A stretch of 64,000 bases of DNA from Minisyncoccota bacterium (GTDB lineage Bacteria > Patescibacteriota > Minisyncoccia > Phycocordibacterales > UBA9973): NCBI GenBank assembly GCA_041661005.1, contig JBAZVG010000001.1:114116-178115 (forward strand). Direction: 5' to 3'. Below are positions 12,524-22,282 of the stretch, one piece after another (within the stretch, counting starts at the first letter, position 1; each line of letters begins with the position of its first letter). A program made the position numbers and the translations under genes. The notes below the pieces were generated by a model. That model was not told the DNA's origin. It saw only the letters and a program-made list of their open reading frames with translations, and did not search any database.

Positions 12524-12657
12524 AATATAACCACATAAGTATATACCCTCGGGGGGTATATGTCAATACAAGTGCCTTAAAGAAGAAAATGGAAAACTAA
12601 TATACCTCATTAATTATAACGTTTTTTAGCAAAAAATGCTATACTCTGAGCATAAAC

Positions 12658-15600
12658 ATGAATAATAAAGGTTCAAAATTTAACAGGGGTTCTGAATGGA
12701 GAAAGTGGGATCTACATACCCACACTCCTTTCACAAAATTAAATAATAATTACTCAGATGCCAAGAGTAGCGATGTATGGGTAGAATTTTGCGAAAAGGT
12801 GGAAAATTCAGATGTGGAAGTTTTTGGTATAACAGACTATTTCTCTGTAGAAAATTACCTTATTTTTAAAAAGAAGTTTGAAGTAAAATATCCAAAATCA
12901 AAAAAGGTATTTTTCCCCAACATCGAGTTAAGAGTTGACCGTTCTTCGAACAATCGCAATGAAGGGTATGATTTGCACTTAGTTTTTGATAATAAGATTG
13001 ATGATGTAGAACTAGAAAACTTTCTACATAATTTAAAGTTAGAAAATACGGATACTAATGGTAAAAAACTAAAAGCAAACGAACTAAAAACAGAAAACGA
13101 TTTTAAAACTGCTTTTACCACAATTCCTTTTATCGACGAAGCTCTTAAAGATACTTTTGGTGATAAGCGACCATTTTTTAGAATACTCATGGCCCATGGG
13201 CACGGTGGGATACAACCGGAAAGGGATAACTCTAGAAAGAATGCAGTTGCTGAAGAAACAGACAAGAGAGTAGCAGACATTTATTTTGGATGTGATGGGA
13301 AAGATAGGGAATTTTTTCTTAATGATCGAGGTAAAGTAAAAAAGAAAAAAGCTTGTATCTCTGGAAGCGATGCTCACTCTTTTAAAGATTTCAATGAAAA
13401 GGTTGGAAAAAAGTTTTTAAATGATAGTACAAGACACACCTTCCCCACTTGGATAAAAGCAGATAAAACCTTTGAGGGCTTAAAGCAAATTACTCATGAA
13501 CCACAAGAGAGAGTCTTTTTAGGTGATAAACCAGAAAAACTTTTAGATGTCGAATCAAACCGTTCGAGATTTGTGGAATCTGTAAAAGTTGGACATATAG
13601 ACAGTAAACAAACATCTGGTTGGTTTAATAGTGAAATTCCTTTGAATCCCGGGTTAGTTGCTATTATTGGAAGAAAGGGTCAAGGTAAAAGTGCATTAAC
13701 TGATATAGTTGGTTTATGTGGAAGGACTAAAATAGATCCAAAAGACTATTCTTTTCTACGTGAAGATAAATTCCGTAAGAGAGGTTTGGCAAAAGGTTAT
13801 GAAGCAACTATGACATGGTTAGATGGGGTATCTATTACTGAGAGTCTTGATGCAAAGGTAAGTGCTACAGAAGTTGAAAAAATAAAGTATCTACCTCAAA
13901 AATATGTCGAGACAATATGTAATGAGGATGGTGTAAGTTCTCAATTTCAAAGAGAAATAGACAAAGTCATTTTTTCCTATATTCCAGAAGAAAATAGATT
14001 AAATACAACAAGCCTCTTTGATCTTATTAATGTAAAAACTTCTACAATCGAAGGTAAGGTTGTACAGATTAGGGCTGATCTTCATTCTGTAAATGAGCGA
14101 CTTGTTAAATTGGAGGGGAAACTTTATCCCCAATATTTAGAATCACTACAAAATAAGCTTGAAGGTAAAAAGCAGGAATTAAAAAGCTTAATTAAACCTA
14201 AGACGGTTGTTGCGCCCAAAAATCAGCTTAAAAAAATCGACCAAGATAAACTAACTAAAATAACGGACGGGATAGAAACAATTTCAAAAGAAATTGAAAC
14301 CGCAAAAGCTTCTATAAAAACAGTTAACGACAAGCTCAACAAGCTTGTAAAACTTAAAGCAGCAGTTGGACGTATTACAGAAAGTGCCGCTACAATAGTA
14401 AGAGACTTTACAGAAGATGCGAAACTCCTCTCAATCAATTTGTCAGAGCTTTTGAATATTAAAGTTGATAATAAAATTTTAGACAAGACAGAACAACAAT
14501 TATCTAAAAAGAAAAAACACCTAGAAGAGTTGTTGGATCAAAATGATAACCCTTCATCCAAAAGTCTTTATGCAAAAAAGTCAGACCTTGAATCACAAAA
14601 GGAAAAAATGGTTAATGTTCTAGGAGAAGATCAAAAGAAATATTCTGCATACCAAAACAAAATTAAAGAATATGAAGCGAGAAAAAAAGAGATTGAGGGT
14701 AAGCCAAATGATTTAACTCTAGAGACCATTCAATCAATTGAAACGGAAATAAAATATCTCGATAAAAAAGTTTACTCTGACCTAAAAAATGAACTCAATG
14801 AAAGAGACTTACTAGCTGGAAATCTATATACAGAGTTACAACAAAAATCTAATTTTTATAAAGATATTTACCGCCCAATTCAAAGATTTATAGAGACTGA
14901 AAAGAAAACGCAAGAGGAATCTGGGAGTATGCTTGAATTTGATGCCGGTGTGGTTTTTGATAGAAGTTCTTTTACAAATCGCTTTCTTGGTTACATTAAC
15001 CAAAACCGAGATGGTAGTTTTCAATATACAGATAAAGGGCAAAAAGTGCTGAATAAGATTACTGATAAAACTGATTTTTCTGGTCCTACTGGAATTAAAA
15101 ATTTTACACAAGAATTAATTGAACACTTAAAATATGATAAAACCCAAAATCCTGAAAAAGAAAGTACCCTGCGTTCTCAACTTAAAGGTGGAGAACAAGA
15201 GAACATACAATTTTATGATTACATCTTTGGTTTAGATTACTTAAATGTTAAATATAAAGTATTATTTAACGGCAAAGATCTAAACAGTAATGAATTTTCA
15301 CCAGGAGAAAAGGGGGCATTATTGCTCATTTTTTACCTACTAATAGACAAAGAGAGAATACCTTTGATTATGGATCAGCCAGAGGAAAATCTAGATAATG
15401 AGTCAATTTTTGAACTGCTCGTTCCCTATATACGGAAAGCAAAGTTGAAAAGGCAAATTATCATTGTTACGCACAACCCTAATTTAGCTATTGTATGTGA
15501 TGCGGAGCAAATTGTTGCCGTTTCAATGAATAAACAGAAAAACCAAATAAGATACACATTTGGTAGTATAGAAAATATTGAAATGAATAAGAAGGCATCT

Positions 15601-15663
15601 GATGTGTTAGAGGGTACGTTACCGGCATTTGATATTAGAGGCAATAAATATATCAGAAAATAA
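12658..15663 (+). CDS. PHP-phosphoesterase domain fused to an SMC/OLD-like ABC ATPase (1001 aa)
   Basis: N-terminal WDLHTHTP, HGHGG and SGSDAHS (PHP histidine motifs). Walker A GRKGQGKSA. Long coiled-coil middle. C-terminal ABC signature/Walker B/D-loop (LLLIFYLLID...IPLIMDQPEENLD) and H-loop (IIIVTHNP). Extended -10 TGCTATACT lies 15 nt upstream. Confidence 0.85.
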   Translation: MNNKGSKFNRGSEWRKWDLHTHTPFTKLNNNYSDAKSSDVWVEFCEKVENSDVEVFGITDYFSVENYLIFKKKFEVKYPKSKKVFFPNIELRVDRSSNNRNEGYDLHLVFDNKIDDVELENFLHNLKLENTDTNGKKLKANELKTENDFKTAFTTIPFIDEALKDTFGDKRPFFRILMAHGHGGIQPERDNSRKNAVAEETDKRVADIYFGCDGKDREFFLNDRGKVKKKKACISGSDAHSFKDFNEKVGKKFLNDSTRHTFPTWIKADKTFEGLKQITHEPQERVFLGDKPEKLLDVESNRSRFVESVKVGHIDSKQTSGWFNSEIPLNPGLVAIIGRKGQGKSALTDIVGLCGRTKIDPKDYSFLREDKFRKRGLAKGYEATMTWLDGVSITESLDAKVSATEVEKIKYLPQKYVETICNEDGVSSQFQREIDKVIFSYIPEENRLNTTSLFDLINVKTSTIEGKVVQIRADLHSVNERLVKLEGKLYPQYLESLQNKLEGKKQELKSLIKPKTVVAPKNQLKKIDQDKLTKITDGIETISKEIETAKASIKTVNDKLNKLVKLKAAVGRITESAATIVRDFTEDAKLLSINLSELLNIKVDNKILDKTEQQLSKKKKHLEELLDQNDNPSSKSLYAKKSDLESQKEKMVNVLGEDQKKYSAYQNKIKEYEARKKEIEGKPNDLTLETIQSIETEIKYLDKKVYSDLKNELNERDLLAGNLYTELQQKSNFYKDIYRPIQRFIETEKKTQEESGSMLEFDAGVVFDRSSFTNRFLGYINQNRDGSFQYTDKGQKVLNKITDKTDFSGPTGIKNFTQELIEHLKYDKTQNPEKESTLRSQLKGGEQENIQFYDYIFGLDYLNVKYKVLFNGKDLNSNEFSPGEKGALLLIFYLLIDKERIPLIMDQPEENLDNESIFELLVPYIRKAKLKRQIIIVTHNPNLAIVCDAEQIVAVSMNKQKNQIRYTFGSIENIEMNKKASDVLEGTLPAFDIRGNKYIRK

Positions 15664-15677
15664 AATCTTTTAAATTA

Positions 15678-21978: not shown

Positions 21979-22038
21979 GGATCGAACCTACGACCAATCG
22001 CTTAACAGGCGACCGCTCTACCGCTGAGCTACCCCGGA
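21967..22038 (-). tRNA. tRNA-Asn (anticodon GTT)
   Basis: Hand-folded on the minus strand: TCCGGGG-TA-GCTC-AGCGGTA-GAGC-G-GTCGC-CTGTTAA-GCGAT-TGGTC-GTAGG-TTCGATC-CCTAC-CCCCGGA-G. 7/4/5/5-bp stems. No CCA encoded. Confidence 0.85.
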
Positions 22039-22042
22039 ATGT

Positions 22043-22282
22043 TTATAATGTTTTCAAAAATTCTTTACCCGAACCCGATTTAAGCTTTTTCTCTAACACT
22101 CGGGCATCTTGTCTTGTTCCGGTGGATTGTTTATAAATCAAGCGCCAAGGCTTGAATGCGCGAGTAGATTTCGTATCGCTTGAATTATGTTCCAGTAATC
22201 TTCTTTCTGGATTACTACTTAATCCTACATAAATTCGTCCATCTTTTTCGCTTTTTATTGCATACACAAAATAGATTGCCAT
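22043..22282 (-). CDS. GIY-YIG nuclease family protein (79 aa)
   Basis: MAIYFVYAIKSEKDGRIYVGLSSNPERRLLEHN is the GIY-YIG signature (YhbQ/Slx1-like). The gene ends 5 nt from the tRNA 5' end. Confidence 0.8.
   Translation of the reverse strand: MAIYFVYAIKSEKDGRIYVGLSSNPERRLLEHNSSDTKSTRAFKPWRLIYKQSTGTRQDARVLEKKLKSGSGKEFLKTL

What the first reader, a model, noticed from the sequence alone, without database searches (positions are those of the whole stretch)
12541..22045. About 9.4-kb integrated element at tRNA-Asn: serine recombinase overlapping the tRNA, with PrimPol-helicase and a minimal Pol X
The large serine recombinase (20248..21978) ends 12 nt inside the 3' end of tRNA-Asn(GTT). The block upstream switches strand relative to the minus-strand metal island and encodes replication-type cargo. 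A palindrome ATATACCC-TCGGG-GGGTATAT at 12541..12561 shares the core TC(C/G)GGGGGTA with the tRNA junction (CTCCGGGGGTAGG at 21966..21978). It could be the distal att site; serine recombinases use short, imperfectly palindromic sites.
Basis: partly seen in the sequence, partly recalled or inferred. Interest (0 to 1): 0.6.

Follow-up and report, generated by a model that had tools for sequence, protein, structure and literature searches.

The report
Serine-recombinase defence element at tRNA-Asn
A roughly 9.4-kb mobile element sits at the 3' end of the tRNA-Asn gene of a Patescibacteria genome, one member of a widespread and apparently undescribed family of serine-recombinase elements, but the palindrome proposed as its far attachment site is really the copper-repressor (CsoR) operator of the neighbouring metal operon.

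Summary
The features are real. tRNA-Asn(GTT) lies at 21966-22038 (-). A 572/576-aa large serine recombinase ends 13 nt inside its 3' end. Upstream on the + strand are a TrlF-family PHP-ATPase, a 334-aa protein, a 171-aa minimal Pol X, a PrimPol-helicase and a conserved 62-aa gene.

The integrated-element reading is supported by comparison. In 38 of 79 related genome loci the recombinase stop lies at a tRNA on the opposite strand (37 overlap it; 32 are tRNA-Asn; 30 overlap by exactly 13 nt). The tRNA's terminator hairpin lies inside the recombinase ORF and covaries. Five relatives carry a distal repeat of the tRNA 3' end. Cargo differs between relatives and is mostly anti-phage defence. A related genome has the identical tRNA with no element.

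The proposed distal att site is not supported. ATATACCCTCGGGGGGTATAT matches the published type-2 CsoR operator. It fills the 17-nt spacer of the region's best promoter, which drives a metal operon encoding CsoR. Its likeness to the tRNA end is at chance level.

No attL was found in the window. The left end is placed between 12567 and 12657 by inference only. This is a new variant of a known kind (tycheposon or satellite-like tRNA islands). Interest is moderate.

The parts
12538..12566 (-). Flanking feature, not part of the element. Sigma-70-type promoter TTGACA-17-TATACT of the metal operon, with the CsoR operator palindrome ATATACCCTCGGGGGGTATAT (12541-12561) in its spacer.
   Evidence: Best promoter match in 12000-22600, 11 of 12. 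Matches the operator consensus in PMC3902906. CsoR gene at 8123-8395(-). Same motif upstream of csoR in L013, L015 and L026.
12567..12657 (.). Zone that must hold the left end of the element (attL expected here). No recognisable att sequence was found.
   Evidence: Bounded on the left by the intact metal-operon promoter and on the right by the TrlF start codon. No tRNA 3'-end copy anywhere in the window. No similarity to L121 DNA here.
12658..15663 (+). Cargo: 1001-aa TrlF-family PHP-domain plus SMC/ABC-like ATPase. It is a distant relative of the anti-phage protein Ppl.
   Evidence: NCBIfam TrlF_fam_ATP 608 bits against a cutoff of 350. Ppl scores only 91 bits against a cutoff of 1000. PADLOC Ppl 1.6e-16, C-terminal part only.
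15678..16682 (+). 334-aa protein of unknown function. It recurs in related elements, so it counts as a backbone gene. It is followed by two strong terminators (stems at 16685-16708 and 16735-16751, each followed by a T-run).
   Evidence: No Pfam, NCBIfam or PHROG hit. Homologs in L006 (36%), L024 and L121 (26%). An 84-nt conserved intergenic stretch, 16750-16832, also occurs in L121. Terminators.
16960..17253 (+). 97-aa ORF of unknown function.
   Evidence: Called as a gene in the Logan and JGI records. No family hit.
17356..17871 (+). 171-aa minimal Pol X, with palm and thumb only.
   Evidence: PF14791 thumb 29.3 bits. Aligns to T. thermophilus PolX residues 159-312. AF2 pLDDT 93.9; Foldseek TMq 0.77, probability 1.0. 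D48 and D97 invariant, E50 nearly invariant.
17895..19976 (+). 693-aa primase-polymerase (AEP) plus PriCT-like region plus RepA/AAA_25 helicase.
   Evidence: AAA_25 1.5e-24. RepA structure 1g8y 3.8e-5. Phage primase-helicase PHROGs. AEP motifs DFDVD, GAHLIW and DPSRVLRMP visible in the alignment. Profile against the PrimPol AEP structure 6zp9, E 0.012. Homologs in L121, L122 and L084 carry PF09250.
19945..20133 (+). Conserved 62-aa protein directly upstream of the recombinase. Candidate regulator or directionality factor; this is inferred.
   Evidence: 70-74% identical to the 60- and 61-aa genes at the same position in L121 and L122.
20140..20251 (+). Extended -10 box TGGTATAAT (20140-20148) and a long conserved leader hairpin (20187-20251) that ends 8 nt before the recombinase ATG and is followed by a U-rich run.
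   Evidence: Fold energy -41.8 kcal/mol, z -8.2, 0 of 200 shuffles as good. Conserved, with compensatory changes, in L121, L122, L083 and L023.
20260..21978 (+). Large serine recombinase (integrase). Its last codons and its TAG stop are encoded by the tRNA trailer, the acceptor 3' strand and the T-stem.
   Evidence: Family hits. In a 30-sequence alignment Y13, R15, S17 and Q24 and the Cys pairs are invariant, and the tail KTEVFASVxPTLLR is conserved. A 13-nt overlap recurs in 30 loci.
21934..21953 (-). Intrinsic terminator of tRNA-Asn (stem, 6-nt loop, then a T-run). It lies inside the recombinase coding sequence.
   Evidence: Terminator scan. Across 33 loci, 85% of cells are paired against 27-50% when the partner is slid, and 6 of 7 pairs show compensatory changes.
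21966..21970 (.). GCTCC: the inferred right boundary and crossover region. It is the only stretch shared by the occupied site, the unoccupied tRNA in L102, and the tRNA-less recombinase context in L121.
   Evidence: L102 is identical to the window from 21966 rightwards only. L121 is homologous up to 21970 only.
21966..22038 (-). tRNA-Asn(GTT), the integration target.
   Evidence: ARAGORN; Rfam 70 bits.

Best explanation
Window positions about 12.57-21.97 kb hold an integrated mobile element of a family that is widespread in Patescibacteria.

Integration. A large serine recombinase inserts the element at the extreme 3' end of the tRNA-Asn gene.
- The element brings its own copy of the last few tRNA nucleotides and a replacement terminator for the tRNA. 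That terminator is embedded in the 3' end of the recombinase gene.
- The recombinase ORF therefore reads across the junction and stops at a TAG in the tRNA T-stem.

Other parts, all inferred from homology.
- The PrimPol-helicase and the 171-aa Pol X would replicate or repair the excised circle.
- The conserved 62-aa gene and the leader hairpin would control recombinase expression or direction.
- The distal part carries cargo: a TrlF-family PHP-ATPase, probably anti-phage.

Left side. The palindrome at 12541-12561 does not belong to the element. It is the CsoR operator inside the promoter of the adjoining copper/metal operon. The element's left end lies just beyond it, between 12567 and 12657. 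No attL can be recognised, so this copy may no longer be able to excise.

What is shown: gene identities, the family-wide tRNA linkage, terminator covariation, the att repeats in relatives, and the operator assignment. What is inferred: the crossover position, replication as a circle, the defence function, and current mobility.
For: 1. Family linkage to tRNA.
- 38 of 79 genome loci have a tRNA on the opposite strand at the recombinase stop: 32 Asn, 3 Met, and 1 each Glu, Gly and Ser. In 37 the ORF overlaps the tRNA (30 by exactly 13 nt); the Gly case lies 24 nt downstream.
- The C-terminal tail KTEVFASVxPTLLR is conserved.

2. The terminator hairpin inside the ORF covaries.

3. Same-strand distal repeats of the tRNA 3'-terminal 13-19 nt occur 5.4-11.6 kb away in L027, L047, L059, L068 and L076. 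None occurs on the control strand. L110 has the identical tRNA with a second GCTCCGGGGGTAGG copy 170 nt away.

4. Unoccupied site. L102 keeps the right-flank synteny and has a tRNA-Asn identical at 73 of 73 positions. Unrelated DNA follows it directly, with no hairpin and no recombinase.

5. Cargo varies and is defence-rich.
- TPR-GreAB-C-PIN in L027.
- DruA, NurA and HerA in L076.
- PycTM in L068.
- GmrSD plus an XhoI R-M system in L059.
- Type III R-M in L083 and probably L023 (assigned by eye).
- GmrSD in L121.

6. The backbone of p334-like gene, Pol X, PrimPol-helicase, 60-aa gene and recombinase is shared with L121, L122, L083 and L023.

7. The operator assignment rests.

8. Pol X fold.
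Against: - No attL and no copy of the tRNA 3' end exists in the window or in the 1.5 kb beyond its left edge. The left boundary is therefore inferred, not seen.
- No empty-site allele of this species was found. L102 is a different species (PLD 69% identical).
- The crossover position rests on L121, whose status is unknown. It could be an attP form or an insertion at another site.
- In more distant relatives the repeat reaches the T-loop, which would place the crossover elsewhere.
- No circular form was observed.
- An independent Logan contig spans exactly 12545-21986, but its ends cannot be interpreted. The tRNA is shared between genomes, and a G-rich palindrome can break an assembly.
- The PrimPol assignment is weak for this protein itself: no Pfam hit, and the AF2 model failed (pLDDT 46).
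- The TrlF defence role is untested.
Confidence: 0.7

Rival explanations
1. The palindrome at 12541-12561 is the distal att site, sharing a TC(C/G)GGGGGTA core with the tRNA junction, and the recombinase crosses over there.
For: - The 10-mer pattern occurs only twice in the window.
- It sits at the strand switch.
- The Logan contig L002 starts at 12545, inside the palindrome.
- Relatives do carry distal repeats of the tRNA 3' end.
Against: - The palindrome is fully explained as a CsoR operator in a promoter spacer.
- In register it matches the tRNA end at only 10 of 13 positions, no better than six other sites in the window. True repeats in relatives match 13/13, 16/16, 15/16, 17/19 and 15/17.
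- As a displaced tRNA end it would give a mismatched acceptor stem and no T-stem.
- The G-tract plus GTA shared with the tRNA is an intrinsic feature of CsoR operators.
Confidence: 0.06
2. The mobile element is only the replication and recombinase module (about 16.7-21.97 kb). TrlF and p334 form a separate defence islet lying between it and the metal operon.
For: - Two strong terminators follow p334 at 16685-16760.
- GC is lowest and tetranucleotide usage most deviant at 11.7-17.6 kb.
- The close relatives L121 and L122 are only about 6 kb long.
Against: - p334 has homologs inside related elements (L006, L024, L121).
- The intergenic stretch downstream of it, 16750-16832, is conserved in L121 between the p334-like gene and Pol X.
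- TrlF ends 14 nt before p334 on the same strand.
- No tRNA-end repeat lies at 16.7-17.3 kb.
Confidence: 0.12
3. The locus is a composite, accreted island. Everything left of tRNA-Asn, the metal island included, was brought in by successive insertions at this tRNA. The present recombinase copy is a fixed remnant that can no longer excise. This does not exclude the best explanation.
For: - Right-flank synteny with relatives stops at PGb175, and nothing to the left is shared.
- The metal island and the TrlF region are compositional outliers.
- L015 also has a CsoR island on the same side of its recombinase.
- There is no attL in the window.
- Most relatives (about 30 of 36) also lack a distal repeat within 10 kb.
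Against: - All element ORFs are intact.
- The catalytic residues of the recombinase are conserved.
- No recombinase remnant or tRNA fragment lies between the element and the metal island, or left of the island.
Confidence: 0.3

Closest known systems
Tycheposons and other tRNA-targeting, self-replicating cargo elements (Prochlorococcus; bioRxiv 10.1101/2020.12.28.424599)
   Same: - A small element at the proximal end of a tRNA-linked variable island.
- Site-specific integrase plus a primase/helicase/polymerase module plus variable cargo.
- Partial tRNA copies as att scars.
- Growth of the island by accretion.
   Different: - 910 of the 937 integrase-carrying elements in that study use tyrosine recombinases. 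This family uses a large serine recombinase.
- Here the integrase ORF itself crosses the junction and contains the tRNA terminator.
- The host is Patescibacteria.
- The element carries a mini Pol X.
- Cargo is mostly defence.
Large serine recombinase integrases of phages and SCC elements (phiC31, Bxb1, A118, CcrAB)
   Same: - Domain set of resolvase, recombinase domain and zinc ribbon.
- The weak best NCBIfam equivalog hit is CcrB.
- Integration at the 3' end of a conserved gene, as CcrAB does at rlmH (from general knowledge).
   Different: - The known examples mostly target protein-coding genes and share only a 2-bp core (general knowledge).
- This family targets tRNA 3' ends and, in several members, rebuilds 13-19 nt of the tRNA.
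- None of this has been tested biochemically.
Myxophage Mx8 intP/attP, a tyrosine integrase (recalled from memory, not checked here)
   Same: attP lies inside the 3' end of the integrase gene and attB overlaps a tRNA gene, so integration changes the integrase C-terminus.
   Different: - A different recombinase superfamily.
- Here the change of C-terminus (572 aa against 605 aa in L121) is only inferred from one contig of unknown status.
Phage satellites with defence hotspots (P4-like, PICI)
   Same: Integrase plus primase-helicase plus defence cargo, with no structural genes.
   Different: - No capsid-redirecting or packaging genes were recognised.
- No relatives of the recombinase were found in IMG/VR viral contigs.
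- No helper phage is known.
ASFV Pol X (174 aa)
   Same: The same minimal architecture of palm plus thumb, lacking the 8-kDa and fingers domains. This is judged by length and by the fold match to Pol X palm and thumb.
   Different: - Carried by a bacterial mobile element and by phages.
- DxE instead of DxD at the first metal-binding motif.
- Activity untested.
Type-2 CsoR operators (Streptomyces lividans; PMC3902906)
   Same: 18 of the 20 specified consensus positions match. TAC-X9-GTA is present. The site overlaps a promoter, and the cognate CsoR gene lies in the operon.
   Different: The host is a Patescibacterium, and binding has not been tested.

Membership tests
Large serine recombinase (serine integrase) | N-terminal resolvase catalytic domain with the active-site serine motif (Y-x-R-x-S ... 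Q) | tested here: met
   PF00239 scores 41.5 bits against a cutoff of 23.3. Y13, R15, S17 and Q24 are invariant in 30 homologs.
Large serine recombinase (serine integrase) | Recombinase domain plus zinc-ribbon domain C-terminal to the catalytic domain | tested here: inconclusive
   PF07508 scores 19.8 bits (cutoff 21.1) and PF13408 scores 20.2 bits (cutoff 25.3), both just under their cutoffs. The cysteine pairs C297/C300, C314/C317 and C329/C332 are invariant. phrog_95 integrase at 2.5e-45.
Large serine recombinase (serine integrase) | attP x attB recombination with a 2-bp crossover | not testable with these tools
   Only indirect evidence: a shared GCTCC between the occupied, unoccupied and tRNA-less contexts.
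tRNA-integrated genomic island / integrative element | Integrase gene adjacent to the tRNA gene at one end | tested here: met
   The arrangement recurs in 38 of 79 loci.
tRNA-integrated genomic island / integrative element | Direct repeat of the tRNA 3' part at the distal end | tested here: not met
   None in the window or in the 1.5 kb beyond its left edge. The feature is present in 5 relatives.
tRNA-integrated genomic island / integrative element | Unoccupied site in related genomes and variable content between relatives | tested here: met
   L102 has the identical tRNA without an element, but it is a different species. Cargo differs in every relative.
Tycheposon / PICI-like satellite | Tyrosine recombinase; PICI-like types also have packaging or capsid-redirection genes | tested here: not met
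   The integrase is a serine recombinase. No structural or packaging PHROG hit. The replication module and the tRNA site do match.
CsoR operator (the palindrome) | 21-nt G-tract pseudopalindrome ATATACCCCTNAGGGGTATAT with TAC-X9-GTA, overlapping the promoter of a CsoR-regulated operon | tested here: met
   Protein binding is not testable here.
DNA polymerase family X | Pol beta-type palm and thumb fold with three catalytic carboxylates | tested here: met
   Fold TMq 0.77, probability 1.0. D48 and D97 invariant and E50 nearly invariant. The first motif is GDIE, not GDxD. Activity untested.
AEP primase-polymerase (PrimPol) | AEP motifs I (DxD), II (H) and III (D..R..P), and a family profile match | tested here: inconclusive
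   The motifs are visible. Profile against PDB 6zp9 gives E 0.012. Pfam PF09250 is not hit for this protein but is hit in the homologs in L121, L122 and L084. The AF2 model is unusable.
Ppl anti-phage protein / TrlF family | Full-length match above the curated cutoff | tested here: met
   Met for TrlF: 608 bits against a cutoff of 350. Not met for Ppl: 91 bits against a cutoff of 1000, C-terminal part only. Defence activity untested.

The most novel reading that the evidence does not exclude
The family may be a serine-recombinase counterpart of 'attP inside the integrase gene'. Because the crossover lies within the last codons of the recombinase ORF, integration would swap the enzyme's C-terminus: 572 aa ending at a TAG in the tRNA T-stem, against about 605 aa in the tRNA-less context L121. 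That would give the element a built-in switch reporting whether it is integrated or free.

At the same time the element takes over termination, and in some members 13-19 nt, of what may be the only tRNA-Asn gene in these small genomes (copy number was not checked here). That ties the tRNA's integrity to the element.

On this reading the family is a dedicated shuttle for defence genes in the ultra-small genomes of Patescibacteria.
Probability: 0.2. Interest if true: 0.65.

Novelty: new variant of a known kind. Interest (0 to 1): 0.45.

Why it matters
Patescibacteria have tiny genomes, and little is known about how they acquire genes. This window shows one member of a widespread element family: about 300 recombinase clusters with E <= 1e-20 and 79 genome loci.

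- The family uses a large serine recombinase, not the usual tyrosine integrase, to target a tRNA 3' end.
- It carries its own PrimPol-helicase and a 171-aa Pol X.
- It ferries different anti-phage systems from genome to genome.

If the family is active, three things follow:
- It would explain the variable region next to tRNA-Asn in these bacteria.
- It would offer compact serine integrases with a defined, conserved target.
- It would provide a large natural set of minimal Pol X enzymes (3561 clusters).

For this particular finding, the practical outcome is a correction. The eye-catching palindrome is a copper-repressor operator, not an att site.

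Tried and rejected
- **Repeats.** A repeat search across 11.5-23 kb found no flanking direct repeat. The only tRNA-related repeat is a 5' duplication on the other side of the tRNA.
- **Exact-protein look-ups.** Window proteins returned only the source contig and two Logan contigs of one run, with no other strain and no empty site.
- **Logan contig L002.**
  - It equals window 12545-21986 exactly, which looked like read-level support for the boundaries.
  - A unitig end only shows that the graph branches within 30 nt, and cannot say on which side.
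  - The tRNA plus 9 nt is shared with another context.
  - A G-rich palindrome can break an assembly.
  - I therefore do not use this contig as boundary evidence.
- **L088 against L084.** Identical element DNA is joined to a tRNA whose 5' acceptor strand does not pair with the element-type 3' strand. This is either a fresh insertion into a second host or an assembly chimera across the 56-nt identical tRNA core. It is not decisive.
- **Group I intron.** None was found by Rfam in or near the tRNA, although such introns are known in patescibacterial tRNA-Asn (PMC13011429).
- **Viral contigs.** The recombinase family is absent from IMG/VR.
- **PrimPol structure.** AF2 on the N-terminal domain with a 6-sequence alignment failed (pLDDT 46). 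No fold search was run on it.
- **Literature.** 'TrlF' returned nothing relevant. No paper was found on serine recombinases at tRNA-Asn in Patescibacteria.
- **P' arm.** I searched the window for a P' arm like the one downstream of the L121 recombinase and found nothing.

Full report
**1. Observation check**

The host is a Candidatus Paceibacterota (Patescibacteria) MAG on an 813-kb contig.
- tRNA-Asn(GTT) lies at 21966-22038 on the minus strand. Rfam places it at 21967-22038.
- The ORF 20248(TTG)/20260(ATG)-21978 is a large serine recombinase. It overlaps the tRNA by 13 nt.
- Upstream, all on the + strand, lie:
  - a 1001-aa TrlF-family PHP-ATPase (NCBIfam 608 bits; only a partial likeness to Ppl);
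  - a 334-aa protein with no family;
  - a 97-aa ORF;
  - a 171-aa Pol X;
  - a 693-aa protein with AAA_25.
- To the left lies a minus-strand metal island: P1B ATPase, YHS, DUF305, DUF302, DUF3105, redoxin and DsbD_TM.
- The palindrome ATATACCCTCGGGGGGTATAT is at 12541-12561.

**2. The palindrome is a CsoR operator, not an att site**

It lies between divergent genes, whose start codons are at 12523 (-) and 12658 (+). It is therefore not a terminator either.
- It fills the 17-nt spacer of TTGACA-17-TATACT on the minus strand. This is the best promoter match (11 of 12) in 12000-22600, and it reads into the metal operon.
- That operon encodes a 90-aa CsoR-family repressor at 8123-8395 (PF02583, 66 bits).
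- The published type-2 CsoR operator is the 21-nt pseudopalindrome ATATACCCCTNAGGGGTATAT. Positions 3-8 and 14-19 are the most conserved, and a TAC-X9-GTA motif is required (PMC3902906). The window sequence has ATACCC and GGGTAT at exactly those positions, and it has TAC-X9-GTA.
- In the 91 loci fetched up to that point, ATACCC-N5-GGGTAT occurs four times. Three of those lie within 40 nt upstream of csoR homologs, in L013, L015 and L026.
- The likeness to the tRNA end comes from the G-tract plus GTA that every such operator has. In register with the tRNA 3' end it matches 10 of 13 positions. Seven sites in the window, the palindrome among them, match at that level. No site matches longer probes.

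**3. The recombinase belongs to a tRNA-linked family**

About 300 clusters match with E <= 1e-20, nearly all from Patescibacteria metagenomes. A scan of one genome per species gave 79 loci.
- In 38 of them a tRNA on the opposite strand sits at the recombinase stop: 32 Asn, 3 Met, and one each Glu, Gly and Ser. In 37 the ORF overlaps the tRNA, 30 of them by exactly 13 nt; in the Gly case the tRNA starts 24 nt past the stop.
- The conserved protein tail KTEVFASVxPTLLR is encoded by the tRNA trailer, a hairpin and the acceptor 3' strand. The TAG stop lies in the T-stem.
- On the tRNA strand the hairpin is followed by a U-run. Across 33 loci it is 85% paired, against 27-50% when the partner is slid. 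Six of seven pairs show compensatory changes.
- So a functional tRNA terminator is embedded in the recombinase ORF, and it travels with the recombinase.

**4. Attachment sites in relatives**

- Five loci carry a same-strand copy of the tRNA 3'-terminal 13-19 nt at 5.4-11.6 kb: L027, L047, L059, L068 and L076. The matches are 15/16, 13/13, 16/16, 17/19 and 15/17. No control-strand hit is as good.
- L110 has the window's exact tRNA and a second GCTCCGGGGGTAGG copy 170 nt downstream. This looks like a miniature remnant.
- L102 keeps the right-flank synteny (GH130, MPI, CTP, PLD, PGb175) and has a tRNA-Asn identical at 73 of 73 positions. Unrelated DNA follows it directly, with no hairpin and no recombinase. 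It is an unoccupied site in another species.
- L121 (recombinase 80% identical) is homologous to the window up to GCTCC (21970). It then diverges into non-tRNA DNA, giving a 605-aa ORF.
- The only stretch common to the occupied, unoccupied and tRNA-less contexts is GCTCC (21966-21970). I take this as the likely crossover region for the window's subfamily. The status of L121 is unknown, which is a caveat.

**5. Left boundary**

The window has no tRNA-end copy, and neither does the 1.5 kb beyond its left edge.
- p334 has homologs within related elements (L006, L024, L121). The intergenic stretch 16750-16832 is conserved in L121 between the p334-like gene and Pol X.
- TrlF ends 14 nt before p334.
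- The metal-operon promoter is intact up to 12566.
- The left end therefore most likely lies in 12567-12657, which gives about 9.4 kb.
- Composition gives weak support. GC is 0.30-0.34 over 12-17 kb, and tetranucleotide deviation peaks at 11.7-16.5 kb. But the metal island is also atypical.
- Right-flank synteny in relatives ends at PGb175. The whole left side is therefore a variable region.

**6. Cargo and replication module**

- Relatives delimited by repeats or by host genes carry different defence genes:
  - TPR-GreAB-C-PIN in L027;
  - DruA, NurA and HerA in L076;
  - PycTM in L068;
  - GmrSD plus an Eco57I-type methylase and XhoI in L059;
  - DUF4145 in L047;
  - type III R-M in L083 and probably L023 (assigned by eye);
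  - GmrSD in L121.
- The module of Pol X, PrimPol-helicase, 60-aa gene and recombinase is shared with L023, L083, L121 and L122.
- The Pol X model is confident (pLDDT 93.9). It matches Pol X palm and thumb domains with TMq 0.77.
- The Pol X family has 3561 clusters. It also has 201 hits in IMG/VR viral contigs; in the 80 loci kept, none of the other element genes is present.
- The recombinase family itself is absent from IMG/VR.
- A conserved leader hairpin (20187-20251; -41.8 kcal/mol; z -8.2) precedes the recombinase ATG. It shows compensatory changes in four relatives.

**7. Mechanism**

Inferred steps:
- The serine recombinase integrates a circular form at the tRNA-Asn 3' end.
- The element replaces the tRNA trailer and terminator.
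- The PrimPol-helicase and Pol X maintain the excised form.
- The 62-aa gene and the leader hairpin regulate the recombinase.
- TrlF is defence cargo.

Whether this copy can still move is unknown.

**8. Comparison with known systems, and novelty**

- The element works like tycheposons and other tRNA-island elements, or like phage satellites.
- It differs in using a serine recombinase whose ORF spans the junction.
- I found no description of this family in the searchable literature.
- I rate it a new variant of a known kind, of moderate interest.

**9. Limits**

- No same-species empty site and no circle were found.
- The Logan contig that spans 12545-21986 cannot be interpreted safely.
- The L088 chimeric tRNA may be an assembly artefact.

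Noticed in passing
window 22043-22395 (minus strand); also L017, L053, L102, L104: A 79-aa GIY-YIG gene sits 4 nt upstream of tRNA-Asn on the same strand.
- It is preceded by a pseudo-copy of tRNA positions 1-30, interrupted by two GC-rich palindromic hairpins (37 nt and 20 nt).
- The same layout (5' tRNA fragment, often with hairpin insertions; GIY-YIG gene; intact tRNA) recurs at tRNA-Asn, tRNA-Ala and tRNA-Ser in four other loci.
- It looks like a Seg-type free-standing homing gene that carries a replacement tRNA 5' part and uses the tRNA promoter.
- I did not find it described for Patescibacteria.
   Followed up: partly
window 20140-20251: A conserved structured leader lies upstream of the recombinase. 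It consists of an extended -10 box TGGTATAAT, then a stem-loop of about 65 nt with a sequence-conserved loop GGTCTGGCGATTG, then a U-rich run just before the ATG. It could be an attenuator, a protein-binding site or an origin.
   Followed up: partly
window 17356-17871; loci L126-L205: The 171-aa mini Pol X belongs to a very large and tightly conserved family: 3561 clusters, with the top 120 at least 65% identical. It is also common on 20-70 kb IMG/VR viral contigs, and the 80 loci kept lack the other element genes.
   Followed up: partly
L088 2010-2082 compared with L084 11731-11803: An identical element (0 mismatches over 2010 nt) is joined to a tRNA-Asn whose 5' acceptor strand (CCACGGA) does not pair with the element-type 3' strand. 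The result would be a chimeric tRNA with two acceptor-stem mismatches. It is either a recent insertion into a second host or an assembly chimera.
   Followed up: partly
L110 8400-9000: A tRNA-Asn identical to the window's has a second copy of GCTCCGGGGGTAGG about 170 nt downstream. Only about 155 nt lie between the copies, including a terminator hairpin. It looks like an element reduced to its two att sites.
   Followed up: no
window 1265-12523: A 12-kb minus-strand copper/metal island under one CsoR-controlled promoter. It holds a P1B ATPase with HMBD, YHS, DUF305, DUF302, SHOCT, DUF3105, redoxin, DsbD_TM, ICMT and a lycopene-cyclase-domain protein. It is compositionally atypical and has no counterpart in the syntenic relatives.
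   Followed up: partly
window 21966-21968 compared with L102: The unoccupied tRNA-Asn in L102 encodes its 3' CCA. In the window and in the 33 aligned recombinase-linked loci, the discriminator base is followed by CA instead (GAGCA is invariant in the alignment). Insertion therefore seems to remove the encoded CCA.
   Followed up: no
window 23301-23672: A 123-aa protein has two matched stretches to the CsrA family (PF02599, 98 bits). This looks like a tandem or extended CsrA.
   Followed up: no
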